A stretch of DNA of 64,000 nucleotides. Source: a virus. Lineage: Duplodnaviria; Caudoviricetes. The notes beneath the pieces were generated by a model that saw only the letters and a list, made by a program, of their open reading frames with translations, ran no database searches and was not told the origin of the DNA. Each line of letters begins with the position of its first letter. Positions within the stretch are counted from its first letter, which is position 1. Below are positions 1 through 20,950 of the stretch, in pieces. The stretch covers positions 1 through 64,000 of IMG/VR virus record IMGVR_UViG_3300020577_006811, one strand, 5' to 3'. The position numbers were made by a program, and so were the translations under genes.

Positions 1-521
1 CGCTCATCGTTGACGCGGCCCACGCCAAACGAAACCGAGCGCGCAATCTCGCGCGCGATATCGGGCACGCGGTCTCGGATCGCAGCGTATGGAGTGTCCA
101 GCTGTACAGCCATCGTCCCGCATGCAATATCGAACCCAACACCGCTGATAGAAATCTGGCCCTCGTAGGCAATGACGCCGCCGACCGGCTGCGCGTAGCC
201 AAGGTGGCCGTCGGCGCACAGCACGCCAGCCACCACGTTGCCGACCTTCATGCAGTTCTTCATCTGCTCAATGGTGCCAGGCTCATGCTCGCCCAGAATG
301 GTCAATGGCGCGTCGGCATACTCGGGCGCCTGCGGTGCGATGGTCGCGCTCAGCGCCTTGGCTTCCGCCTCCACGTGCTCCTCACGCGCCGCCTTGCGAT
401 AACTGCACCAGACGGGCCAGTCTTTGATGCCGTCGGGCCGCATGACGCGGGCGTCCGGGTCTAAGCCGGCGGCAACCGCCATTTCGCGTGCGCGGGTCTC
501 GTATGGGTCGGCTCTACGCAT
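1..521 (-). CDS. rtcB: RtcB-family RNA ligase (N-terminal part, runs off window start)
   Basis: Not in ORF track (no stop in window). Manual translation from ATG at 521 (AGGA RBS) gives ...VLCADGHLGYAQPVGGVIAYEGQISISGVGFDIACGTMAVQLD..., the RtcB DxHxGY/PxGG/VGxDIxCG signature. Confidence 0.9.
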   Translation of the reverse strand, partial: MRRADPYETRAREMAVAAGLDPDARVMRPDGIKDWPVWCSYRKAAREEHVEAEAKALSATIAPQAPEYADAPLTILGEHEPGTIEQMKNCMKVGNVVAGVLCADGHLGYAQPVGGVIAYEGQISISGVGFDIACGTMAVQLDTPYAAIRDRVPDIAREIARSVSFGVGRVNDE

Positions 522-576
522 GGTGTTCCTATCCAGGGACGTAAAAGGTGATAATGGGAAAGCGTTAGGAATTGGT

Positions 577-993
577 CTACCCTTCGGCAACCGGCTTCCA
601 ATCGTACTGAGACACGTTCTGACCATAGACGCCGCCGTAAAAGTACTCTCCCGGCCAGACAAGCGAGCCGCCATAATAGCCGTTGGAATCGTTGCGATAG
701 TCGATAACGATCTCGCCGCGATCTGTGACAATCTTCATGCCGTAGAACGCAAGCACGTCTGAATCGGGGTGAAACGACGATGTGGCCCCATCCGGCATTT
801 CAATGTCCGCGACGGATTGGACGATTGCCGGAAAGCCAAGCGCCGGAAGCTCTACGTGCTCCACCCAAGAGTACGAACAGCAATCAGCATCCACTTTGAC
901 AATCATTTCGCCATCGACCGTCAGAAACCGAAGCGCCTGCCTATCAGCCGCGATCTCAATGCCCTTGATTACCTTTCCAACAAGGGGATTCAT
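577..993 (-). CDS. conserved phage hypothetical protein (CC..W..H / SNGYYGG motifs)
   Basis: ATG 993 with GGAGG RBS just after the upstream stop; DCCSYSWVEH and YRNDSNGYYGG motifs. Confidence 0.7.
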   Translation of the reverse strand: MNPLVGKVIKGIEIAADRQALRFLTVDGEMIVKVDADCCSYSWVEHVELPALGFPAIVQSVADIEMPDGATSSFHPDSDVLAFYGMKIVTDRGEIVIDYRNDSNGYYGGSLVWPGEYFYGGVYGQNVSQYDWKPVAEG

Positions 994-994
994 C

Positions 995-1507
995 TCACAC
1001 CTCCAATACGTCGGTTTCAGCATTCGCGCAGGCGTCAGCTAACGGCCGCAACTCGCGCACCGCGCGGGAGCGCCATATGCACCCTGAGGCGCAGTCCCAG
1101 CTATAATACCAGGGCATGCCATTATCTAAGCGCATGGACCAGACATAGGGTGCGATGATGATGCCGTCGTACCGCTTGGAGAGATCTGCCCAGCGAATAC
1201 GGAAATCGCGCTCCCAACGATGCGTACCGGGCTGGTGGTCCGCCGCCCACTCGCGGTGGAACAGTTTGAGTGCCGCGGCCCCCTGCAGATGCAGTATCTT
1301 GGTGTCGTCGTGAAGCACGACCTCAGTGGGGCATGCGAGATGGCCAAGGCGGAAGTCATTTCCTTCGCACCACGAACGCCAATCGTCATCGCCCTCAACC
1401 GACACCCACAGCCCGGATGGCTTGTCGCCCCGACCACCGAAACCCTCCGGTTGCGGCACGTCCCGCACTTCGGTAAGGTGTGCAGTGCTGTAGTGGATCA
1501 AACGCAT
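995..1507 (-). CDS. phage hypothetical protein, possible ADP-ribosyltransferase-like fold
   Basis: LIHYS, KPSGLWVS, RYDGIII, WDCASGCIW motifs; the fold call is an inference. Confidence 0.65.
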   Translation of the reverse strand: MRLIHYSTAHLTEVRDVPQPEGFGGRGDKPSGLWVSVEGDDDWRSWCEGNDFRLGHLACPTEVVLHDDTKILHLQGAAALKLFHREWAADHQPGTHRWERDFRIRWADLSKRYDGIIIAPYVWSMRLDNGMPWYYSWDCASGCIWRSRAVRELRPLADACANAETDVLEV

Positions 1508-1519
1508 CTCACAATTCCC

Positions 1520-1723
1520 TCATGCCGCTTTCGCGGCCGTTGCACAAATCTCCGCGAGGTAGTCTCGCAAGGGCGCGTTCACCAGCGCTTCGGCAATGAA
1601 CGCCGTTTCGCTCATGCGCACCTTGCCTGCGGCAACGGTAATGACCGTGGGCAGCGCCACCGCGTCAACCGAGCTGATGCCCATCTTGAGGGCGAGATCC
1701 GTGATGGCTTCAATGCGGGTCAT
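1520..1723 (-). CDS. hypothetical protein
   Basis: ATG 1723 with GGGAG RBS, in operon. Confidence 0.55.
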   Translation of the reverse strand: MTRIEAITDLALKMGISSVDAVALPTVITVAAGKVRMSETAFIAEALVNAPLRDYLAEICATAAKAA

Positions 1724-1805
1724 GTCCGTCTCCCTTGCTGATGTGGAGACCGTACTACGCGCCGTAGCGTACGTCAACCGCTGTCAGCAGGAGGCTGTGG
1801 ATCAA

Positions 1806-2030
1806 TCATGGCCGCCCAGGTCGTGCTTTGACTTCCGCAGTCGGCGCCATCTGGTTGATCTCGTCAATTCGGAGAGGCTTGCGCCAATGCGCAGACACAG
1901 CGCGCATTCCAATCAAGCCCGTCATGTCTTCCAGAATGAACGGCTCATCGGTTCCAAGGTTGCGCATGATGCGATCCCGAACCGCTTCCGCATTCCGCCA
2001 TTTCGTCGGGCTCCAACGGAGCACCGGCAC
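1806..2030 (-). CDS. hypothetical protein
   Basis: ORF on the operon strand. Confidence 0.45.
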   Translation of the reverse strand: MPVLRWSPTKWRNAEAVRDRIMRNLGTDEPFILEDMTGLIGMRAVSAHWRKPLRIDEINQMAPTAEVKARPGRP

Positions 2031-2235
2031 CGGCTTGCCGTTGGCTTCCCAAAGCGTGACGCTCAGGTGCCAAAGCGGACGTCCGCCGGCATATCGGGAT
2101 CATTCCATCCCGATATTAACGGTAAGCCCCGCGCTTACCAGCCGATCCATGCGCTTGTGGTGGCCGGGCAGGATCTGCGTTGTTGGATCGTAAACGGGGT
2201 GCTCCAATGCAAAGGTGGCCATCGGTGATCTAAGT

Positions 2236-2700
2236 TCAATCGTCATCGCCGTCGTCCTTTTCAAACTCCGAAAGGTCAGCCTTCCACTTCGCAATGGTGC
2301 CGTCTGGGCCAATCTCCATGATGACGTAGTCGCCATAGCCTTCGCCTTCCGGGCACATCAGGCTAGGCACATAGCCGTCAATCTCGGCAATCACGTTGCG
2401 GTCGGTGTCCAGCAGCGCATAGTCACCATCATCACAGACCTTGTAGTGGATGCTGGCCGTGGTGCCCTGCGGCCAGTTCTCAATGCGGCCGGTATCAAGA
2501 TCAATCGTCGGGCACCAGTTGCCGCCGCCAAGGCTGTCGTTATCCGCAGCCGTCCCCTCGCGGCACGGGATGCGAGAGCCGTTCTCATCCTGCACTCCGT
2601 TGACTTCGCCGTCTTCCCAATAGCGCACGCCGCAGCGGGCGCGCAGGTATTTGACGGGAACGGCCTTCGTTTCCTTCAGGCGTAGAGCGTGCATCGTCAT
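2236..2700 (-). CDS. conserved phage hypothetical protein
   Basis: VRYWED, HYKVCDDG, GYGDYV motifs; GGAG RBS. Confidence 0.8.
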   Translation of the reverse strand: MTMHALRLKETKAVPVKYLRARCGVRYWEDGEVNGVQDENGSRIPCREGTAADNDSLGGGNWCPTIDLDTGRIENWPQGTTASIHYKVCDDGDYALLDTDRNVIAEIDGYVPSLMCPEGEGYGDYVIMEIGPDGTIAKWKADLSEFEKDDGDDD

Positions 2701-2727
2701 CTCCTAACTAGGCTCATAAAGGGGAGT

Positions 2728-3129
2728 TTACGGGAATGCGCGTGCCGCCAGCCGATCTAGCGGGAAGTCTTTATCGGCGGCTTCCTGACATTCTTTCACC
2801 CACTGTTCGCGCTCCTCGTTAGGCGGCGATGGGTACGATGATATCCGCCCATCAGCCGACTCACGTTTGTGAGCAGCGATCCAAGCGTCCCAGCGGTCCT
2901 TCATCAGACGACCAAACAATCGCTTGTGATCTCGCCAATGATCAAGACAGCCGACGCCGCAGAAATGATGTTCTCGGTCAATCGGGGGGCTGATTCCCAT
3001 CAAGGTGTAAAACCCAGAGCCATAACCGGGTTTGCTTTCCGAGTGCAGCACAAGTCGGTAATCTTCTACGTTCGTTCGCGTGCTGAGATCGTTCCCGCAG
3101 CCGTCGCACGTGACCTTTACAAGTTTCAC
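2728..3129 (-). CDS. putative Zn-finger protein
   Basis: GTG start overlapping the upstream TGA; CDGC and HFCGVGC motifs. Confidence 0.65.
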   Translation of the reverse strand: MKLVKVTCDGCGNDLSTRTNVEDYRLVLHSESKPGYGSGFYTLMGISPPIDREHHFCGVGCLDHWRDHKRLFGRLMKDRWDAWIAAHKRESADGRISSYPSPPNEEREQWVKECQEAADKDFPLDRLAARAFP

Positions 3130-3731
3130 GAGGCGCCCTCCAGCGAGCGCCGCAAGGCGGCCACCCACTCCGTGCGCCCTTTTACGCGGTCCACTTCCTT
3201 CTGATGCTCTTCAGCATCGCGGGCAATACGACGTTCCGCTCCCGCAACCTGCGCTGCGTGCCATGCGGCTTCGGTCTGCCGCACCGGCATCTTGTCAAAC
3301 GAGCTTGTCCCGCAGTCAAAATCCAGAGAATCGCGAAGCTGCTCCAGCATGAAGTTCTTCAGTCCAACATGTTCGTCGGTCGGCGGCGTCCACGCCTCCA
3401 CCTTCGCGATCATCGCCTCGTATCGTTCGCGCTCGGCTTTTCGCTTAGCCATCCTCTCGCGCCAATACTCGACGGCTTTTTCGTAATCGGCGTCAACGGC
3501 GCGGGCAATCTCGCGGTCGCTCATCGTCCGAAGATCGGCTAGCCGCGCCTGAGCCGCTGCAAGAGACTTTGCGTGAAAATCGCTTGGCTCAAATGCGTTG
3601 GGAATTTCAGCGTCAATCGGATCGTCGCGCATAGTGATGCAGGCGCCAAACGCACGCGCACATTGCATCGCAAAGTCTTTGAGCTCGGTCACCTTGCCAT
3701 CTTTGACAGCATACGTGTATCCAGTCGACAT
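3126..3731 (-). CDS. conserved phage coiled-coil hypothetical protein
   Basis: N-terminal STGYT...FAMQCARAFGA motif; GGAG RBS. Confidence 0.85.
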   Translation of the reverse strand: MSTGYTYAVKDGKVTELKDFAMQCARAFGACITMRDDPIDAEIPNAFEPSDFHAKSLAAAQARLADLRTMSDREIARAVDADYEKAVEYWRERMAKRKAERERYEAMIAKVEAWTPPTDEHVGLKNFMLEQLRDSLDFDCGTSSFDKMPVRQTEAAWHAAQVAGAERRIARDAEEHQKEVDRVKGRTEWVAALRRSLEGAS

Positions 3732-3751
3732 TGCGTCTCTCCTCTAAATCT

Positions 3752-3943
3752 TCACCCTCTCAACGCCGCGCGGCCGGCGTCCGTGATCACTAGGCGAGAA
3801 TCGTCCGCAGGCCGATCAACCCAGCCCATCTGCTCCAGCTTCACCCGGATCACAGGCGGCACAATGTCGGCGCGTTCTCCGCCCGACCGCCGGCACGCCA
3901 TCGCGATCATGGTCAGCCAGTTCCGTTCTCTGTTGCTCAGCAT
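3752..3943 (-). CDS. small winged-helix-like hypothetical protein
   Basis: LEQMGWV...ITDAGRAAL wing motif. Confidence 0.55.
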   Translation of the reverse strand: MLSNRERNWLTMIAMACRRSGGERADIVPPVIRVKLEQMGWVDRPADDSRLVITDAGRAALRG

Positions 3944-3969
3944 TGGCCCCCGCCTTTCGCTGTTGTTAA

Positions 3970-4176
3970 TCAGTGCCGTTCCCGCGTGCCGTCAGATGCG
4001 GGCAATAACGCGCGGCTTGGTTCGTTGCGGATCGCAATGTACATCTCGTCAAACCTGTTAGCAGCGCGGAAGGTGTACCATTGTGTCAGATCATGGTTCA
4101 CAATGGCCTCTCTCGGAATCAAGCAGCCAAGCCTGCACCTAGCTTTCCAACGGCGGCGTGAAATCCTTTTGCGCAT
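3970..4176 (-). CDS. hypothetical protein
   Basis: ATG overlapping the upstream TGA. Confidence 0.45.
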   Translation of the reverse strand: MRKRISRRRWKARCRLGCLIPREAIVNHDLTQWYTFRAANRFDEMYIAIRNEPSRALLPASDGTRERH

Positions 4177-4289
4177 CAATTCACAGCCTCTGCGTAGCCC
4201 AGCAGCTCGGGCAGGAACGACGCGCCGTAGCAGACGCCAACAACAACCAGCCAAAATATCGCGTCACGGTAGGTCATGGCTAGCTCCTC

Positions 4290-4547
4290 TCAGCGCTCAC
4301 TGCGGTTGCGCAGGAACTGGCGGCAGTCGTGGCGCACCTTTTCCGCATAGGAACCCTGCAGCGTGAACATTTCGCCGAAATCGTTGCAGAGGTCGGAAAG
4401 CTCACCCATCTTGCGGGCCAGAATTTCCAACTCCGCGTCTGTCAGGTGGTCGCCGCGACGATAGACCTCCAGCAAAGTGCTTGGGTGCCGAGGCACAAGG
4501 CCATTAGTTCCGACAGGGCCGAAGCCTGCAAATGCGCGCGGGTCCAT
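4290..4547 (-). CDS. hypothetical protein
   Basis: GGAGG RBS, in operon. Confidence 0.65.
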   Translation of the reverse strand: MDPRAFAGFGPVGTNGLVPRHPSTLLEVYRRGDHLTDAELEILARKMGELSDLCNDFGEMFTLQGSYAEKVRHDCRQFLRNRSER

Positions 4548-4561
4548 AATACGGTCCTCCC

Positions 4562-4879
4562 CTATTCCTTGTGCGCGCGCTCTACCGCGGCGCAGGCCAC
4601 AGAGAACGATTCCGCTTTACCGCTGTCGTGCGTCCAGCCGTTGCGGTAGACGGCCCAGTCCCAAGTCTGCGCATCACCCGCCACGCGGCCAATGATGCAC
4701 TCACCAAGCCAGCCCGCAAACACGCCGGGCCGTTCGCACTCCCAGCGCACCCGTTCGATCTTCTCCATGGCGGCGTAGCGATAGTCCATGCGTTCGTACT
4801 CGCCCATGTCGGACCAGTCGCGGCCGTTAAGTGCGGCCAGATCGCGCGCCAAGGTTTCGGTGCGGTTGGTGTAGGTCAT
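4562..4879 (-). CDS. hypothetical protein
   Basis: GAGG RBS, in operon. Confidence 0.65.
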   Translation of the reverse strand: MTYTNRTETLARDLAALNGRDWSDMGEYERMDYRYAAMEKIERVRWECERPGVFAGWLGECIIGRVAGDAQTWDWAVYRNGWTHDSGKAESFSVACAAVERAHKE

Positions 4880-4886
4880 GACACCC

Positions 4887-5111
4887 TCAATGGTTGGAGG
4901 CGAACGGCGTTTCCGCGTCGCGCCACACGCATCCGGGGATTGTCTCTGCGTTGCGCAGGCGGCGCTGCAATTCCCAGCGGAGTTCGTTGTAGCGCTCGCG
5001 GCGCGTCAGAAACTCGGGGCCGCGCGGGTTCTGCACAAACCTATTCGGGTCGCGCGCCTCCATGGCGTTGATGCGCTCAAGGCGGGCGTAGAGGTTGTCG
5101 GTCGTGTTCAT
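4887..5111 (-). CDS. hypothetical protein
   Basis: In operon, plausible RBS. Confidence 0.55.
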   Translation of the reverse strand: MNTTDNLYARLERINAMEARDPNRFVQNPRGPEFLTRRERYNELRWELQRRLRNAETIPGCVWRDAETPFASNH

Positions 5112-5163
5112 GTCCGCGTCTCCCGTTTCGATACGCAGACGCTACGCTACGGCGCGTATGACG

Positions 5164-5523
5164 TCAAGGAGTTTTCGGGCGCTGCCGCCTAACAGCCTGT
5201 TGATACTTTTCCGCCTCGGTGGGCTCTCGCCAAACGATCTCTGGCTCACGAAGCTCGGCCGCACGCGCGCGGTGTTTCATGCTTTCAGTGACGTTCGCGG
5301 CGTTGATGCCGCCATTCTGACGGCATCCAGTCGAACAAAACTTCGCTAAAGGCTTACCGTCGTCCACCTCCTGCCAAGAGTAGAACCCAACCCACGAGTT
5401 TGACCATGGAGCAAGGGTTCCGCAGATGCAGCAGCAGTGCAGCAGTCGTCCGTCCGAAGTTCGGCGTCGCTGTGGTCCGCGCTCACTGCGATCAAGATCC
5501 ATCACCTTCAATGCGGCTCTCAT
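5164..5523 (-). CDS. putative Zn-finger protein
   Basis: CCICG and FCSTGC motifs; start uncertain. Confidence 0.6.
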   Translation of the reverse strand: MRAALKVMDLDRSERGPQRRRTSDGRLLHCCCICGTLAPWSNSWVGFYSWQEVDDGKPLAKFCSTGCRQNGGINAANVTESMKHRARAAELREPEIVWREPTEAEKYQQAVRRQRPKTP

Positions 5524-5570
5524 GTCTAAAAATCGTAAAATGCCCTTTATGGGCGCAGAAAGGATATTGT

Positions 5571-5918
5571 TCATGCCAGATGTAAAGGCATTCCGCGCCA
5601 CCGCCTTAGGCGAAAACGGCCTTCTAAGAAGGGCCTGTTTTGGCCGTTGCCGCGCAAAATGGTTTCATCGGATTGATCGGGTACGGCTCCAAACAGGCTA
5701 GTTGGAGGGGGAAAGATCATCCAGGCGTACTCAGAACCAAGGTAGGAATCGACAGCCGTTGAAGCCCCTTCCAGCTTAAGCGGCGCCGTTCCGAGCAATG
5801 AAAGAGGGTTGATAATCTTCGCCGGAAGGACGGATACCGGCATCAGACTGCTTGCCCGGACAATTGCCGGTGCGGCAAGGAAACCAAGCGCACCTGTCAG
5901 CAGGCCTCTACGGTTCAT
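5571..5918 (-). CDS. twin-arginine-leader protein carrying a major capsid protein fragment
   Basis: MNRRGLLTGALGFLAAPAIVRASSLMPV leader; LLGTAPLKLEGASTAVDSYLGSEYAW matches MCP 28563-28640 at 11/26 ungapped; AGGAG RBS. Confidence 0.75.
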   Translation of the reverse strand: MNRRGLLTGALGFLAAPAIVRASSLMPVSVLPAKIINPLSLLGTAPLKLEGASTAVDSYLGSEYAWMIFPPPTSLFGAVPDQSDETILRGNGQNRPFLEGRFRLRRWRGMPLHLA

Positions 5919-5928
5919 ACTAGCTCTC

Positions 5929-6138
5929 CTAAGACGCTATGGCGGTGTACGTCGCCACCGCAGCCAAGCCTACGATGCTCGCAAACAGCACCACCATGGC
6001 GACCATGCGAATGTTGGTGCAGACGTTGACGACGTCCCGCTGCTGGCTTGCCGTAGACACCGCCTGCGCGCACAGCATGAACAGCAGCGACCAAAACGCG
6101 GTCAGTCCAAGTAGCATCATCAACTTGGTGGCGGTCAT
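5929..6138 (-). CDS. small two-TM membrane protein
   Basis: Two hydrophobic stretches. Confidence 0.6.
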   Translation of the reverse strand: MTATKLMMLLGLTAFWSLLFMLCAQAVSTASQQRDVVNVCTNIRMVAMVVLFASIVGLAAVATYTAIAS

Positions 6139-6455
6139 ACCGAACCCACCCGAAAGAACGTCGGTATGTCGCCGGAAGCCGCGACCGCGTCCGACGCATT
6201 CGCGACCTCTATGCCAATCTCCTTGAACTTGGTTTTTGATGTCCCGCCAATGTCAACCCACTCAGCGACATGGTTCCCATATTGGTCAAATCCGGAGACC
6301 AACACTGCGCCAGCGCGGCCGGTCTTGTACGGCAGCGGCAGGATCGCGCGAGTTTCCACGGGCAGCACCGACACCGGCATCAGGCTGGAAACCCGGACGA
6401 TGGCAGGGGCGGCAAGCAAGCCAGCAACCCCAGTCAGAAACCCCCTACGGTTCAT
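6135..6455 (-). CDS. twin-arginine-leader protein carrying a fragment of the virion domain found in 30627/32424
   Basis: MNRRGFLTGVAGLLAAPAIVRVSSLMPV leader; VSGFDQYGNHVAE...FKEI resembles VVGYDLYGYPMSE...FKYI; ATGA overlap with the upstream gene. Confidence 0.75.
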   Translation of the reverse strand: MNRRGFLTGVAGLLAAPAIVRVSSLMPVSVLPVETRAILPLPYKTGRAGAVLVSGFDQYGNHVAEWVDIGGTSKTKFKEIGIEVANASDAVAASGDIPTFFRVGSV

Positions 6456-6748
6456 GGCTTCACTTCCCGCGCTTTCAGCATCTCGTCCGCAAGCCGGTAG
6501 CAGGTCTCGGCGACCAACTCGTTGCTCCACCCGCCGTTCGCCCGCGCTGACGCCGAAATCACATGGCCCATGGCCTGCCCAGCCAGCCAATCGCGAATCG
6601 ACATCCCAGTGTGGCCCGGGTCGTGGTAACTGCCGCCGCTTCCGTACCAACGGCCTTGTCCTGGATCAGGAATGGCTGAGGTTGTCGTTTGCGGGACGTA
6701 CTGCGTTGCAGGCCGCGGGAACGCCGGGCCGCCGTCGTGCTGTGTCAT
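6452..6748 (-). CDS. conserved phage protein (DGGPAFP...GMSxRDxxAxxAM family)
   Basis: DGGPAFP and GMSIRDWLAGQAM motifs. Confidence 0.8.
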   Translation of the reverse strand: MTQHDGGPAFPRPATQYVPQTTTSAIPDPGQGRWYGSGGSYHDPGHTGMSIRDWLAGQAMGHVISASARANGGWSNELVAETCYRLADEMLKAREVKP

Positions 6749-6758
6749 CAGTTTTACC

Positions 6759-6941
6759 CTACGTGTTGGTCTTCATCTTCACAAATCCCGCGCGGACGGC
6801 ATCCAATAGCGCTGGACGGATCAGCCCCATGACAACCTCATCAAGGTTGTCACCATGCAAGCCCGTGTTTCTGAGTTCCCTGATCATGCGCCACACCTCA
6901 GACGGTAGTTGCACGACATTTTCCTCAATTCTGCCGGCCAT
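6759..6941 (-). CDS. hypothetical protein
   Basis: GGAG RBS, in operon. Confidence 0.55.
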   Translation of the reverse strand: MAGRIEENVVQLPSEVWRMIRELRNTGLHGDNLDEVVMGLIRPALLDAVRAGFVKMKTNT

Positions 6942-6951
6942 CGTCGCTCCG

Positions 6952-7209
6952 TTACTTTTGATTGACGCGGATAGTGATGCCGCCCGTTTCCGGGTTGGCT
7001 TCCTTGGTCAATGTGGCGTCCGCCGACAAGATCAAATCTAGGTGTGACACCTCAACCTTGCCGCCGCACGCAAGCACCACGGCTGCCAACGCGCGCCGCG
7101 CCTCTACCTCGTGCTGGCGTAGCTTCTCATCCATGATCTGAACCGCACGCGCGCCATCAGAAAGCGCGCGGTCGTAGTCCCGTTCAGCTTGCTCTAGCGT
7201 TCGCATCAC
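6952..7209 (-). CDS. hypothetical protein
   Basis: GGAGG RBS, start overlaps the upstream stop. Confidence 0.65.
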   Translation of the reverse strand: MMRTLEQAERDYDRALSDGARAVQIMDEKLRQHEVEARRALAAVVLACGGKVEVSHLDLILSADATLTKEANPETGGITIRVNQK

Positions 7210-7391
7210 GTCGCCTCCCCTTGCGTCTGCTGCGTTTGGGCTCGCTCCTTTAGCAGCCGGTACGCGTGCGGCTCAGAAATGTTGAACCGCCGCCGCGCGT
7301 CGCGCACCTCTACACCGCTGTCAATGCACCGGAAGAACCGGGCCCGCTCCTTGTCCGTCAGTTTCCCCCTGTCGCGGTCATGCGCTGTCAT
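7206..7391 (-). CDS. small HTH DNA-binding protein
   Basis: VRDARRRFNISEPHAYRLL helix-turn-helix pattern. Confidence 0.6.
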   Translation of the reverse strand: MTAHDRDRGKLTDKERARFFRCIDSGVEVRDARRRFNISEPHAYRLLKERAQTQQTQGEAT

Positions 7392-7414
7392 GGCTTTCTC
7401 TCTCTCATTTACCT

Positions 7415-7942
7415 TCACCAGTATTCCGGAAACCGAAGATCCGGGCCGTATTCCTCCGTCAGGAGTTCGTCGCACAGTTCGGCGTAATATGCCGGGTCTT
7501 CCGTCTTCCAATCTGCCAACGTCATGCATTCGTGGCAGACAAGCTCATCGTCGGGCAGCACATAGTAATCGCTAGGGTCGCATTCATCCCAGTTGCAGCG
7601 CTCGCACGTGCCCATCCAGCCGGCAATGCGATGCGCTTCATTGCGCCCAGTCGTTTCCAGCTTATCGTCTAGGGCCTTGACGCGATGCCCCTCGGGAGCG
7701 CCATAGCATTCGCAGTCCTCTGGCGTGCAGCCTTCGCAAGAGCCGCGCTCGTCCATCCATTCCAGCATCGCGTCGCGAAGCGTCGGCGCGCGCAGCAACT
7801 GCCAGTCTCGGCCACTCTCTGTGCCGATAGCCCACACAGGGTGCAAAACGGGTGGCGCCACAGGCGCGGCAGCCACTGCAGTCGGCACAAGCGGCAATGC
7901 AGCGCCGGCTGCGGCCCCAATTAGAAATTGCCTGCGGTCCAT
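7415..7942 (-). CDS. twin-arginine-leader, Cys-rich protein
   Basis: MDRRQFLIGAAAGAALPLVPTAVAAAP leader; CEGC, CERC and CHEC motifs. Confidence 0.75.
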   Translation of the reverse strand: MDRRQFLIGAAAGAALPLVPTAVAAAPVAPPVLHPVWAIGTESGRDWQLLRAPTLRDAMLEWMDERGSCEGCTPEDCECYGAPEGHRVKALDDKLETTGRNEAHRIAGWMGTCERCNWDECDPSDYYVLPDDELVCHECMTLADWKTEDPAYYAELCDELLTEEYGPDLRFPEYW

Positions 7943-7950
7943 AAGCGCCC

Positions 7951-8106
7951 TCACTTCTTGCCCGCTTCGCGCAAGGCGGCGGCAACTCGTTCCTCAACGT
8001 GCTTGACAAAACACGTTGGATGAAAGGCGTGCCCTGGTTCTCGCAACGGGGTTTCCCAAGACAAGAAGGCAAGCCTGCAATGAGTACAAACTTCGGTCTG
8101 CTGCAT
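7951..8106 (-). CDS. small Zn-binding protein (51 aa)
   Basis: Manual translation MQQTEVCTHC...FHPTCFVKH; CxxC...HxxC. Confidence 0.5.
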   Translation of the reverse strand: MQQTEVCTHCRLAFLSWETPLREPGHAFHPTCFVKHVEERVAAALREAGKK

Positions 8107-19153: not shown

Positions 19154-19309
19154 ATGCAAGCCGTTGTCACATCCCAGTCGGAAATGCGCGCCGCGGTCAA
19201 GGAAGCCGCGCAGAAGGGCCTGCGCTGGACGCAGATCAGCACGCAAGGCCTGCCGTCCGGCACGATGCGGCTCACGTTTTACCCAGAAGCGCAGAGCATC
19301 AACGGTTGA
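19154..19309 (+). CDS. hypothetical protein (51 aa)
   Basis: In operon. Confidence 0.5.
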   Translation: MQAVVTSQSEMRAAVKEAAQKGLRWTQISTQGLPSGTMRLTFYPEAQSING

Positions 19310-19430
19310 CGCAGCGACAACGCTGTGCCATGCAAGGCCATGGACCGATTGGCACTCATATCCGGCCTCTCCACGCGCTCGCGATACTTACGCTGAGCCC
19401 CCGCGCGTTTGCGCAACACTTCTCTTAAAC

Positions 19431-19506
19431 GTCACGGTACCCCAACGGTAGAGGGCCCGGCCTCAAACCCCGGTCAGTGTCCGTTCGAATCGGACCCGTG
19501 ACACCA
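19431..19506 (+). tRNA. tRNA-Leu(CAA), short variable loop
   Basis: Acceptor GTCACGG/CCGTGAC; loop CT-CAA-AC; T arm GTCCG-TTCGAAT-CGGAC; A73; CCA. Confidence 0.8.
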
Positions 19507-19510
19507 TCAC

Positions 19511-19587
19511 ACTCGTCTGGCGGAATTGGTATACGCGGTGGGCTTAAACCCCACGTCATGATCCCGGTTCGAACCCGGGGACGAGTA
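19511..19587 (+). tRNA. tRNA-Leu(TAA)
   Basis: Acceptor ACTCGTC/GACGAGT; GTGGG-CTTAAAC-CCCAC; no encoded CCA. Confidence 0.85.
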
Positions 19588-19588
19588 C

Positions 19589-19678
19589 GGGAAGGGTTCC
19601 CCTCAGCGGTCTGTAAAACCGCCGGCTTTGAAAGAGAGGGGTGGCTGCCTAGAGGATCGTAACCTCCCCAACCCACCA
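19589..19678 (+). ncRNA. non-canonical tRNA-like RNA, anticodon GTA (Tyr-like)
   Basis: GGGAAGGG/CCCAACCC acceptor, GCGGT-CTGTAAA-ACCGC arm, GAGG-ATCGTAA-CCTC T arm, ACCA end; no canonical D arm. Confidence 0.7.
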
Positions 19679-19681
19679 TTT

Positions 19682-19756
19682 CGGCCTGTGGTGTAACGGT
19701 CAGCACCCTCGGCTCATAACCGAGTTGTGTGGGTTCAAGTCCCACCGGGCCAACCA
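19682..19756 (+). tRNA. tRNA-Met(CAT), initiator-like
   Basis: C1:A72 mismatch; CTCGG-CTCATAA-CCGAG; CCA. Confidence 0.9.
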
Positions 19757-19913
19757 TCTAAGTAGATTGCCCTTGCAATGTCTCGCGCACCATGCCATGC
19801 AGGGCCATGGACACGACGATCACAACACGACGACCGAGACGGCCACGGCGACCCGCCAGGTAACGTCCGCATTCCGTGTTGTGCGCATCGCGCGCAAATC
19901 CTCCATCATTATA

Positions 19914-19988
19914 GCTGGTTTAGCTCAGCGACAGAGCAGCGGTTTTGTAAACCGAAGGCCGTGGGTTCAAATCCTACAACCAGCACCA
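19914..19988 (+). tRNA. tRNA-Thr(TGT)
   Basis: GCTGGTT/AACCAGC; loop TT-TGT-AA; CCA. Confidence 0.9.
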
Positions 19989-19992
19989 AACC

Positions 19993-20068
19993 GCGCACGT
20001 GGCCCAATGGATAAGGCGTCGGTCTACGGAACCGAAGATTGCAGGTTCAAGTCCTGCCGTGCGCTCCA
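19993..20068 (+). tRNA. tRNA-Arg(ACG)
   Basis: GCGCACG/CGTGCGC; TCGGT-CTACGGA-ACCGA; CCA. Confidence 0.95.
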
Positions 20069-20073
20069 CCTTT

Positions 20074-20152
20074 CAGCGCGTAGGGAAGTCTGGTCGTTCC
20101 CGCCTGCCTTGGAAGCAGGAAACCGCTGGTTCAAATCCAGCCGCGCTGACCA
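20074..20152 (+). tRNA. tRNA-Pro(TGG)
   Basis: CAGCGCG/CGCGCTG; CCTGC-CTTGGAA-GCAGG; CCA. Confidence 0.95.
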
Positions 20153-20156
20153 CTTT

Positions 20157-20232
20157 GCACGCCTAGCTCAGCGGATAGAGCGCTGGTTTCCGAAACCAGA
20201 GGACGCAGGTTCGACCCCTGCGGCGTGCTCCA
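20157..20232 (+). tRNA. tRNA-Arg(CCG)
   Basis: GCACGCC/GGCGTGC; CTGGT-TTCCGAA-ACCAG; CCA. Confidence 0.95.
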
Positions 20233-20238
20233 CAGACT

Positions 20239-20321
20239 GCGCAAGTAGCCGGTTCCGGCTTCTACCCGGTTATCCGTAATTGGAGCTGAAAATGAGGGTT
20301 CGAATCCTTCCTTGCGCGCCA
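20239..20321 (+). ncRNA. non-canonical tRNA-like RNA, probable anticodon TCT (Arg-like)
   Basis: Perfect GCGCAAG/CTTGCGC acceptor, CCGG-CTTCTAC-CCGG arm, GAGGG-TTCGAAT-CCTTC T arm, GCCA end; no canonical D arm. Confidence 0.7.
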
Positions 20322-20353
20322 AACAAAAACGGCGGGGCCTTTCGGCACCCGCC
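20322..20353 (-). terminator. intrinsic terminator between the convergent tRNA groups
   Basis: Minus strand GGCGGGTGCC-GAAA-GGCCCCGCC followed by GTTTTTGTTT. Confidence 0.65.
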
Positions 20354-20446
20354 TGAGTTGGGATAGAGCTGAGCCCTGATCTCAGCGCACCCACTCTAAC
20401 CGCAGCGGCGTTGCACGCCTACAAGATCGCGGCGGTTCTCCACAGA

Positions 20447-20520
20447 TGGCAGCCCCTCCCCGAGTTGAACGGGGCCTTACGCAGTCAAAGTGCGTCGTCA
20501 TACCGATAGACCAAGGGGCC
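20447..20520 (-). tRNA. tRNA-Gln(TTG)
   Basis: GGCCCCT/AGGGGCT; ACGCA-CTTTGAC-TGCGT; G73; CCA. Confidence 0.9.
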
Positions 20521-20522
20521 GC

Positions 20523-20596
20523 TGGACGAGCGCCGGGGAATTGAACCCCGTACCACCGATTTGCAGTCGGCTGCGTCACCGTCCCGCCCGCGCTCG
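20523..20596 (-). tRNA. tRNA-Cys(GCA)
   Basis: CGAGCGC/GCGCTCG; GCCGA-CTGCAAA-TCGGT; U73; CCA. Confidence 0.9.
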
Positions 20597-20716
20597 TTGC
20601 GTGCGCTATCTACACTGATCATGGTTCTTGTTTCAACCGCCGACCAGCGTTGACCCTCCCGCCAAATTGTGCCAGCCATCTTGGAACCGCGTCGCGTTCA
20701 ACCCAAGAGGATGCCT

Positions 20717-20950
20717 ATGACGGACGAGACCACGCCTGACGCCGATGCCATGATGCTTTCCCCCCGCGACATCGCCAACGCCTTGAGCGGCGGCCTTGCG
20801 GACCTCACCACCTACGTTCGCACCAATCCAGCCCCCGATCCGCGCGCCATCATGGCCGAGATGGAACGGCTGGCCCTGAACTTCGTGCGCCGCCTGCCCG
20901 TGCCGCAGGCCCAGGCCGGTGACGTCCCCTCCGAGGCTCGCCCCAACTGA
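20717..20950 (+). CDS. hypothetical protein
   Basis: AAGAGG RBS, GC3-rich. Confidence 0.65.
   Translation: MTDETTPDADAMMLSPRDIANALSGGLADLTTYVRTNPAPDPRAIMAEMERLALNFVRRLPVPQAQAGDVPSEARPN

What the first reader, a model, noticed from the sequence alone, without database searches (positions are those of the whole stretch)
20239..20321. Second rearranged tRNA-like RNA (TCT anticodon) with the same topology
Seen: perfect 7-bp acceptor and canonical T arm, G73-CCA, but only 8-9 nt before CCGG-CTTCTAC-CCGG. CCGGTT (20249-20254) can pair with AATTGG (20278-20283), again enclosing the anticodon arm; the D-loop-like TAATTGG sits 3-prime of the anticodon. Two sequence-unrelated elements sharing one fold in one array argue for a class rather than decay. 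An alternative local fold (GCCG-GTTC-CGGC hairpin) cannot be excluded.
Basis: partly seen in the sequence, partly recalled or inferred. Interest (0 to 1): 0.8.

Follow-up and report, generated by a model that had tools for sequence, protein, structure and literature searches.

The report
Rewired phage arginine tRNA gene
This 83-base phage gene is very probably a working arginine tRNA (anticodon UCU) with all the usual tRNA parts threaded in a different order, so it is not a cloverleaf and gene finders mostly miss it; hundreds of phages share the design, and I found no paper on it.

Summary
Window 20239-20321 has a perfect 7-bp acceptor stem, a T arm, G73-CCA, and an anticodon hairpin (UCU) that starts 8-9 nt after the acceptor.

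It is not decay. A pattern scan and two covariance models found more than 100 distinct relatives in viral contigs. Copies checked in cultured Pseudomonas, Vibrio, Caulobacter and Microbacterium phages are unannotated.

Covariation supports one fold:
- nt 9-11 pair with the 3 nt after the D-loop (H1);
- nt 12-14 pair with the 3 nt before the D-loop (H2);
- the anticodon arm sits inside H2;
- a canonical D-loop (A14, A15, G18, G19, A20) follows the anticodon arm.

The tertiary 15/48 rule is kept across the family. All Arg members keep A20. The few Ile/Met members have U there.

No RNA or charging data exist, so function is inferred.

This scan has already noted the same class at least eight times on other DNA. 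I found no description in the literature. The neighbouring GUA element (19589-19678) is a related but different rewiring, with one conserved relative.

The parts
20239..20245 (+). Acceptor stem, 5' strand (nt 1-7)
   Evidence: Pairs perfectly with 20311-20317. All 7 pairs show both-sided changes in relatives and 99% of cells are paired.
20246..20246 (+). U8, invariant
   Evidence: Invariant column in both alignments. Inferred partner of A14, as in canonical tRNA.
20247..20249 (+). H1, 5' strand (AGC, nt 9-11)
   Evidence: Pairs with 20285-87. Pair 10:51 is GC 12 / AU 6; pair 11:50 is CG 10 / UA 4 / UG 2.
20250..20252 (+). H2, 5' strand (CGG, nt 12-14); the equivalent of the D-stem strand 23-25
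   Evidence: Pairs with 20274-76. Pair 13:39 is GC 11 / CG 4 / AU 3 / GU 1. In the short subfamily H2 is 98.2% paired and all 3 pairs show double changes.
20253..20271 (+). Anticodon arm: tandem U.U (20253-54 with 20270-71), 4-bp stem CCGG/CCGG, 7-nt loop 20259-65, anticodon UCU at 20261-63
   Evidence: The four inner stem pairs are 100% paired and all show double changes. The two outer pairs are often mismatched; loci L079 and L069 show the same UU/UU. The loop has U33 and A37.
20272..20273 (+). 2-nt connector (AU) between the anticodon arm and H2
   Evidence: Present in subfamily I as AA/AU/AC.
20274..20276 (+). H2, 3' strand (CCG); the equivalent of the D-stem strand 10-12
20277..20284 (+). 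D-loop (UAAUUGGA): A14 20278, A15 20279, G18 G19 20282-83, A20 20284
   Evidence: Nearly invariant. All parsed Arg members have A after GG, while the Ile/Met members have U.
20285..20287 (+). H1, 3' strand (GCU)
20288..20293 (+). Variable-region equivalent (GAAAAU); U48 at 20293
   Evidence: 15/48 rule across 102 members: A15 goes with U48 in 69 of 72; G15 goes with C48 (17) or G48 (13) and never with U48.
20294..20310 (+). T arm: 5-bp stem and UUCGAAU loop
   Evidence: 100% paired in relatives, with 3 pairs showing double changes.
20311..20321 (+). Acceptor 3' strand (20311-17), discriminator G (20318), encoded CCA (20319-21)
   Evidence: The other tRNAs of the array also encode CCA.

Best explanation
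This is a gene for a phage tRNA-Arg(UCU) of a conserved non-cloverleaf design. The acceptor stem, T arm and anticodon loop are standard, but the D/anticodon domain is threaded as a circular permutation. After U8 the chain runs down one strand (H1 5', then H2 5', which stands for D-stem 23-25) straight into the anticodon arm. It returns through a 2-nt connector into the other D-stem strand (H2 3', standing for 10-12). It then forms a normal D-loop (A14, A15, G18, G19, A20), closes H1, and reaches the T arm through GAAAAU (U48). Inferred: H2 stacks on the anticodon stem as a D-stem does, G18-G19 dock on the T-loop, and A15 pairs with U48, which gives the usual L shape. Also inferred: RNase P and 3' trimming release it from the tRNA array, host ArgRS charges it through A20 and C35, and it reads AGA/AGG, for which the phage has no other tRNA. 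Shown here: the fold, its conservation and its spread. Inferred only: expression, charging and decoding.
For: - Fold: on an alignment not fitted to structure (MAFFT, 19 sequences), 95.2% of cells pair, 20 of 24 pairs show both-sided changes, and the covariation score is 0.857, against 0.247 for shuffles and 0.08-0.17 for slid controls. H2 in 37 short-subfamily sequences is 98.2% paired.
- Independent membership: model R2, built without this sequence, scores it 60 bits (E 2e-16) and aligns CGG with CCG.
They yielded 102 distinct parsed members with GC of roughly 0.39-0.66 and all six Arg anticodons.
- Cultured phages: BLAST matched 357 GenBank phage records. The four I inspected (Pseudomonas FBPa8, Vibrio PG07, Caulobacter CcrColossus, Microbacterium Pumpernickel) have the same layout and carry no annotation.
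- Tertiary and identity signals: the 15/48 rule is kept. A20 is present in all Arg members and is U in the Ile/Met members.
- Context: it is the last gene of a same-strand tRNA array, 6 nt after the CCA of tRNA-Arg(CCG), and it encodes CCA.
- Need: the 82-kb record holds no other AGA/AGG reader, while AGA plus AGG make up 98 of 1001 Arg codons in the long ORFs.
- Its acceptor stem (GCGCAAG) is 6/7 identical to that of the phage's canonical tRNA-Arg(ACG).
Against: - There is no direct evidence of transcription, processing, charging or decoding.
- Nearest-neighbour folding prefers another structure: the model fold is -23.7 kcal/mol against an MFE of -29.4 here, and it lies about 1-11 kcal/mol above the MFE in all 19 relatives. 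In this copy a 5-bp competitor hairpin consumes half of the anticodon stem.
- This copy has only 4 Watson-Crick anticodon-stem pairs plus tandem U.U.
- Some phages carry a canonical tRNA with the same anticodon right beside the rewired one (CcrColossus ACG/ACG, L077 GAU/GAU). Simple codon supply therefore does not explain the design.
- The 3D equivalence is argued from sequence and not modelled.
- Family members are related, so shuffle controls overstate significance.
Confidence: 0.75

Rival explanations
1. It is a folded, conserved tRNA mimic that does not decode. For example, it could be a decoy or sponge for an Arg-specific anticodon nuclease, for ArgRS, or for a tRNA-modifying enzyme.
For: Canonical and rewired genes with the same anticodon sit side by side in some phages, which suggests a non-redundant role. 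A decoy for an Arg-specific enzyme would also keep the Arg anticodons and A20.
Against: Members carry six different Arg anticodons plus Ile and Met ones, each with a proper 7-nt loop. They keep a 7-bp acceptor, a discriminator and often an encoded CCA. This phage has no other AGA/AGG reader.
Confidence: 0.13
2. This particular copy is a decaying member of the family: a pseudogene with a weakened anticodon stem and a competing hairpin.
For: It has only 4 Watson-Crick anticodon-stem pairs plus tandem U.U. The MFE fold destroys the anticodon stem.
Against: Every invariant family position, H1, H2 and the 15/48 pair are intact, and its score is at the top of its subfamily (the model contains this sequence). 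The same UU/UU feature occurs in L079 and L069 with different stems, so it is a lineage trait. Contigs from several wastewater and river runs lay on the stretch with no differing letters listed, but their coverage of 20239-20321 itself is thin.
Confidence: 0.07
3. It is an ordinary cloverleaf read in the wrong register: a D hairpin at 20248-59 and an 'anticodon' CCG in the stretch 20270-80, which is how ARAGORN calls the Vibrio phage copy.
For: ARAGORN calls L123 2469-2551 as tRNA-Arg(ccg). The MFE fold of the window sequence resembles this reading.
Against: Across 19 relatives the two helices this reading needs are 52.6% and 55.9% paired and show hardly any both-sided changes. Its loop would have U at position 37.
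Confidence: 0.03

Closest known systems
Canonical class I bacterial/phage tRNA-Arg (Rfam RF00005), e.g. this phage's own tRNA-Arg(ACG) at 19993-20068
   Same: 7-bp acceptor (6/7 identical to that gene), discriminator, CCA, T arm with UUCGAAU, 7-nt anticodon loop with U33 and A37, D-loop motif with A14, G18, G19 and A20, and the 15/48 rule.
   Different: Chain order. One D-stem strand and the whole D-loop lie after the anticodon arm, so there is no D hairpin and no four-way junction. Subfamily I adds a 3-bp closing helix (H1).
D-armless mitochondrial tRNAs (e.g. metazoan mt tRNA-Ser(AGY), nematode and mite minimal tRNAs)
   Same: Only a short connector lies between the acceptor and the anticodon stem. 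Standard finders have trouble with them.
   Different: Those have lost the D-loop/T-loop elbow contacts. Here a full D-loop with G18-G19 and a 3-bp D-stem equivalent are kept, only relocated, and the length is 80 nt rather than 50-65.
Permuted and split tRNA genes (Cyanidioschyzon merolae, some archaea)
   Same: The order of tRNA segments in the DNA differs from that of the cloverleaf.
   Different: There the 3' half precedes the 5' half, and processing restores a normal cloverleaf RNA. Here the acceptor halves are in normal order and no cut-and-join could give a cloverleaf without removing the anticodon.
tRNA-like structures of plant RNA viruses (e.g. TYMV TLS-Val)
   Same: As an idea: a tRNA shape reached with a different backbone connectivity, and charged by a host synthetase (own knowledge; papers seen only as titles).
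   Different: Those are 3' ends of RNA genomes with a pseudoknotted acceptor and do not act as decoders. This is a free-standing gene in a DNA phage tRNA array.

Membership tests
Cloverleaf tRNA (RF00005) | 7-bp acceptor stem, discriminator, 3' CCA | tested here: met
Cloverleaf tRNA (RF00005) | T arm: 5-bp stem, 7-nt UUCRANY loop | tested here: met
   20294-20310; 100% paired in relatives.
Cloverleaf tRNA (RF00005) | Anticodon arm with 7-nt loop, U33, purine 37 | tested here: met
   Loop at 20259-65. The stem has 4 Watson-Crick pairs plus U.U.
Cloverleaf tRNA (RF00005) | D hairpin (10-13 with 22-25) lying between the acceptor and the anticodon arm | tested here: not met
   Only 9 nt lie there. 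The candidate hairpin is 53-62% paired across relatives.
Cloverleaf tRNA (RF00005) | Score over the Rfam gathering threshold; called by a tRNA finder | tested here: inconclusive
   32.5 bits against a cut-off of 29. Not listed for RF00005. Not called by ARAGORN.
Rewired phage tRNA class (unnamed; D-loop after the anticodon arm) | H2: 3 nt of the 5' linker pair with the 3 nt just 5' of the D-loop and enclose the anticodon arm | tested here: met
   20250-52 with 20274-76. Covariation; aligned the same way by the independent model R2.
Rewired phage tRNA class (unnamed; D-loop after the anticodon arm) | D-loop U-A14-R15-..-G18-G19 placed 3' of the anticodon arm, 4-16 nt before the T arm | tested here: met
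   20277-84.
Rewired phage tRNA class (unnamed; D-loop after the anticodon arm) | Subfamily I: H1 (nt 9-11 with the 3 nt after GGA), followed by GAAAAU | tested here: met
   20247-49 with 20285-87; 93% paired in relatives.
Rewired phage tRNA class (unnamed; D-loop after the anticodon arm) | 15/48 rule and A20 together with an Arg anticodon | tested here: met
   A15 at 20279, U48 at 20293, A20 at 20284. Family counts.
Rewired phage tRNA class (unnamed; D-loop after the anticodon arm) | Expressed, charged with arginine, decodes | not testable with these tools
   No usable RNA data.
tRNA-Sec (RF01852) | 8/5 or 9/4 acceptor/T geometry, long D-stem, UCA anticodon, score of 47 bits or more | tested here: not met
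   23 bits; 7/5 geometry; UCU anticodon.
Permuted tRNA gene | The 3' half lies upstream of the 5' half and processing yields a cloverleaf | tested here: not met
   The acceptor strands are in normal order at the two ends.

The most novel reading that the evidence does not exclude
Bacterial translation naturally uses elongator tRNAs that are not cloverleaves. Phages evolved this circularly permuted D/anticodon core so that their Arg (and Ile) tRNAs keep working when structure-reading tRNA nucleases, either host defences or the phage's own host shut-off enzymes, destroy the canonical ones. That would explain why canonical and rewired genes with the same anticodon sit side by side.
Probability: 0.25. 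Interest if true: 0.92.

Novelty: new variant of a known kind. Interest (0 to 1): 0.8.

Why it matters
The cloverleaf is treated as universal for cytoplasmic tRNAs. If these RNAs are charged and decode, the L shape can be built from a different chain order, and ArgRS, RNase P, EF-Tu and the ribosome accept it.

It would also mean that phage tRNA inventories, and the codon-supply analyses built on them, systematically miss Arg and Ile genes. One annotation tool even reports a wrong anticodon.

The rewired/canonical gene pairs offer a natural test of whether tRNA architecture matters in the phage-host contest over tRNA cleavage. The design could also be a source of orthogonal tRNA scaffolds.

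Tried and rejected
Rejected.
- MFE-type hairpin nt 9-13 with 18-22: 62% paired. Rejected.
- Forced cloverleaf with a CCG 'anticodon': 53-56% paired. Rejected.
- RNA evidence: no RNA holder is listed. The runs labelled 'RNA?' are contigs and probably DNA, and the one raw-read run laid nothing. This says nothing about expression.
- Promoter and terminator scan of 19200-20750 found nothing.
- BLAST of the whole tRNA array against GenBank phages found no syntenic relative.
- The first genome-contig scan, using the subfamily-I signature, found 0 hits among 185,579 species genomes. The second, looser scan found 23 hits, all in MAGs. About 12 are class members; the four loci I scanned lie in dense tRNA arrays, and phage-like genes (HNH, PNK-like) flank the two whose ORFs I tested.
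- Literature: eight full-text searches found no description of this layout.
- Lead that PAK_P3 'sRNA2', an abundant ~100-nt phage RNA with a T-loop 11-mer (PMC4933390), might be such a tRNA: its published sequence does not fit the class. PAK_P3 is not among the BLAST carriers, although PAK_P2 is.

Full report
**What is there.** The window is part of an 82-kb IMG/VR virus record. It has 61% GC, and its portal protein is distantly related to those of podophages of Pelagibacter, Roseobacter and Caulobacter. Positions 19431-20232 hold seven canonical tRNA genes on the + strand, and two more lie on the - strand at 20447-20596.

The element starts 6 nt after the CCA of tRNA-Arg(CCG).
- a perfect 7-bp acceptor stem;
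- a 5-bp T stem (one G.U pair) with a UUCGAAU loop;
- G73 followed by CCA;
- a CCGG / CUUCUAC / CCGG hairpin only 9 nt after the acceptor;
- a UAAUUGGA motif after that hairpin.

ARAGORN does not call it. Rfam cmscan listed only tRNA-Sec at 23 bits. RF00005 scored through the genome search reaches 32.5 bits, just over its cut-off, so a covariance model can flag it only marginally.

**It is a family.** An exact-pattern scan for the anticodon arm plus the T-loop found a second copy in an unrelated low-GC 174-kb viral contig, with a different acceptor stem and the same layout. About half of those were canonical tRNA-Thr. The rest had this layout, and all of them had Arg anticodons.

Parsing all held loci gave 102 distinct members with the anticodons UCU, CCU, UCG, ACG, CCG and GCG. 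Covariance-model searches added copies with GAU, UAU and CAU anticodons, and showed that single contigs can hold two or three members.

BLAST against GenBank phages matched 357 records. I inspected Pseudomonas FBPa8 (PA11-like), Vibrio vB_VpS_PG07 (T5-like), Caulobacter CcrColossus and Microbacterium Pumpernickel. All four have the same layout and no annotation at that place. The short subfamily is matched in records of Agrobacterium, Stenotrophomonas, Limnohabitans, Streptomyces and Pseudomonas PAK_P2-like phages; I did not inspect those sequences.

In 185,579 prokaryote species genomes, the subfamily-I signature has no match. A looser pattern found members only in MAG contigs. The four loci I scanned lie in dense tRNA arrays, and phage-like genes flank the two whose ORFs I tested.

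**The fold.** A MAFFT alignment of 19 subfamily-I members was almost gapless. On it I tested this structure:
- acceptor stem;
- H1 = nt 9-11 with the 3 nt after GGA;
- H2 = nt 12-14 with the 3 nt before UAAU;
- anticodon stem;
- T stem.

The result was 95.2% paired cells and 20 of 24 pairs with both-sided changes. The covariation score was 0.857, against 0.247 for shuffles and 0.08-0.17 for slid partners. H1 was 93% paired and H2 89.5%. In 37 members of the short subfamily (73-77 nt, no H1), H2 is 98.2% paired and all three pairs show double changes.

Three alternative structures fail on the same alignment:
- the MFE hairpin (62%);
- a forced cloverleaf with a CCG 'anticodon', which is how ARAGORN reads the Vibrio copy (53-56%).

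A model built from the short subfamily, which does not contain the window sequence, scores the element 60 bits and aligns CGG with CCG.

**Reading the fold.** The stretch between H2 and H1 is a textbook D-loop: A14, A15, U, U, G18, G19, A20. The base before the T stem follows the Levitt-pair rule. A15 goes with U48 in 69 of 72 members. G15 goes with C48 (17) or G48 (13) and never with U48, and this holds across all length classes. U8 and A9 are invariant.

All parsed Arg members have A after G18-G19. From established knowledge, A20 is the main D-loop identity element for bacterial ArgRS, together with C35. The three Ile/Met members have U at that position.

From this I infer that H2 is the D-stem, built from strands in swapped order. 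The 5' strand runs directly into the anticodon stem, as nucleotides 23-25 do. The 3' strand precedes the D-loop, as nucleotides 10-12 do. The D/anticodon domain is therefore circularly permuted: opened between 21 and 22, and closed between 44 and 10 by a 2-4-nt connector. In subfamily I, H1 ties the two new ends together. This would preserve the L shape. That last step is inference, because no 3D model was available.

**Function.** The phage has no other AGA/AGG reader in the 82-kb record. It uses AGA and AGG for about 10% of its Arg codons. The gene sits in a tRNA array, with encoded CCA like its neighbours. I therefore think it most likely that this is a working tRNA-Arg(UCU).

Several points argue for caution:
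- There are no RNA data.
- ViennaRNA places the supported fold 5.7 kcal/mol above the MFE for this copy, and above the MFE for all 19 relatives.
- This copy's anticodon stem has only four Watson-Crick pairs plus tandem U.U. Two other members share that trait with different stems.
- Canonical and rewired genes with identical anticodons lie side by side in CcrColossus and in locus L077. This hints at a role beyond codon supply, perhaps resistance to tRNA-targeting nucleases.

**Novelty.** Eight full-text searches found nothing describing this chain order. The scan's own notebook shows that the class was noted at least eight times on other DNA, by first readers and follow-up agents who reached the same reading. 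I formed my reading before that look-up. Those notes are not independent evidence.

**The neighbouring element.** The stretch 19589-19678 (anticodon GUA) has one conserved relative, L167:398-487. That relative also lies in a tRNA array where ARAGORN called no tRNA-Tyr in the 6.6-kb locus held. It shows compensatory changes in the 6-bp enclosing helix and in the acceptor stem. Its helix is uninterrupted and is followed by UGG, its T arm is 4 bp with an AUCGUAA loop, and the window copy has two A.A mismatches in the acceptor. It is a related idea, not the same fold.

Noticed in passing
window 19589-19678: The first 'rearranged' element (anticodon GUA, 8/4 acceptor/T geometry, AUCGUAA T-loop) has a conserved relative, L167:398-487 (L173 holds a near-identical copy). 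The enclosing 6-bp helix and the acceptor stem show compensatory changes. The window copy has two A.A mismatches in the acceptor. This could be a Tyr-type rewired tRNA, an isotype that the scan's earlier notes did not report.
   Followed up: partly
L122 1411-1636 (Pseudomonas phage vB_PaeP_FBPa8, ON857932): The rewired tRNA-Arg lies between what look like the two halves of a canonical tRNA. The acceptor 5' strand plus D arm are at about 1411-1436, and the T arm plus a matching acceptor 3' strand and CCA are at about 1610-1636. A Thr-like CUUGUAA loop lies in between. ARAGORN calls nothing in this locus. It may be a disrupted gene or a nested arrangement; this is unexplained.
   Followed up: partly
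L077:7511-7591, L077:5764-5853, L056:4321-4397, L021:5506-5582: Members of the same architecture carry GAU, UAU and CAU anticodons (Ile/Met), with U instead of A after G18-G19.
   Followed up: partly
L124 2465-2545 and 2553-2630; L077 7511-7591 and 7597-7672: A rewired and a canonical tRNA with the same anticodon (ACG/ACG in Caulobacter phage CcrColossus, GAU/GAU in a viral contig) are direct neighbours.
   Followed up: partly
L123 2469-2551; L124 2452-2548; L006 4493-4585: ARAGORN calls some family members in distorted form. The Vibrio phage copy is reported as tRNA-Arg(ccg) although its anticodon loop reads ACG. Others are reported as 93-97-nt genes. In one search, one Streptomyces phage record (Mildred21) lists a 'tRNA-Phe' feature under the match.
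   Followed up: no
L292 about 4413-4499: Another odd UAU element has a 6-bp helix enclosing the anticodon arm, an AUCGAAA T-loop, and the GG motif placed before rather than after the helix's 3' strand. It may be a further variant of the rewiring.
   Followed up: no
L130 (MAG, 4.2-Mb Methyloligellaceae contig) 1-8000: A rewired tRNA-Arg lies in an array of 13 tRNAs, flanked by a polynucleotide-kinase-like ATPase and a PHROG 'RNA-binding protein' (phrog_850). This may be an integrated element with RNA-repair genes.
   Followed up: partly
window 20327-20356: A GC-rich hairpin without a U tract directly follows the element. The simple terminator scan did not call it.
   Followed up: no
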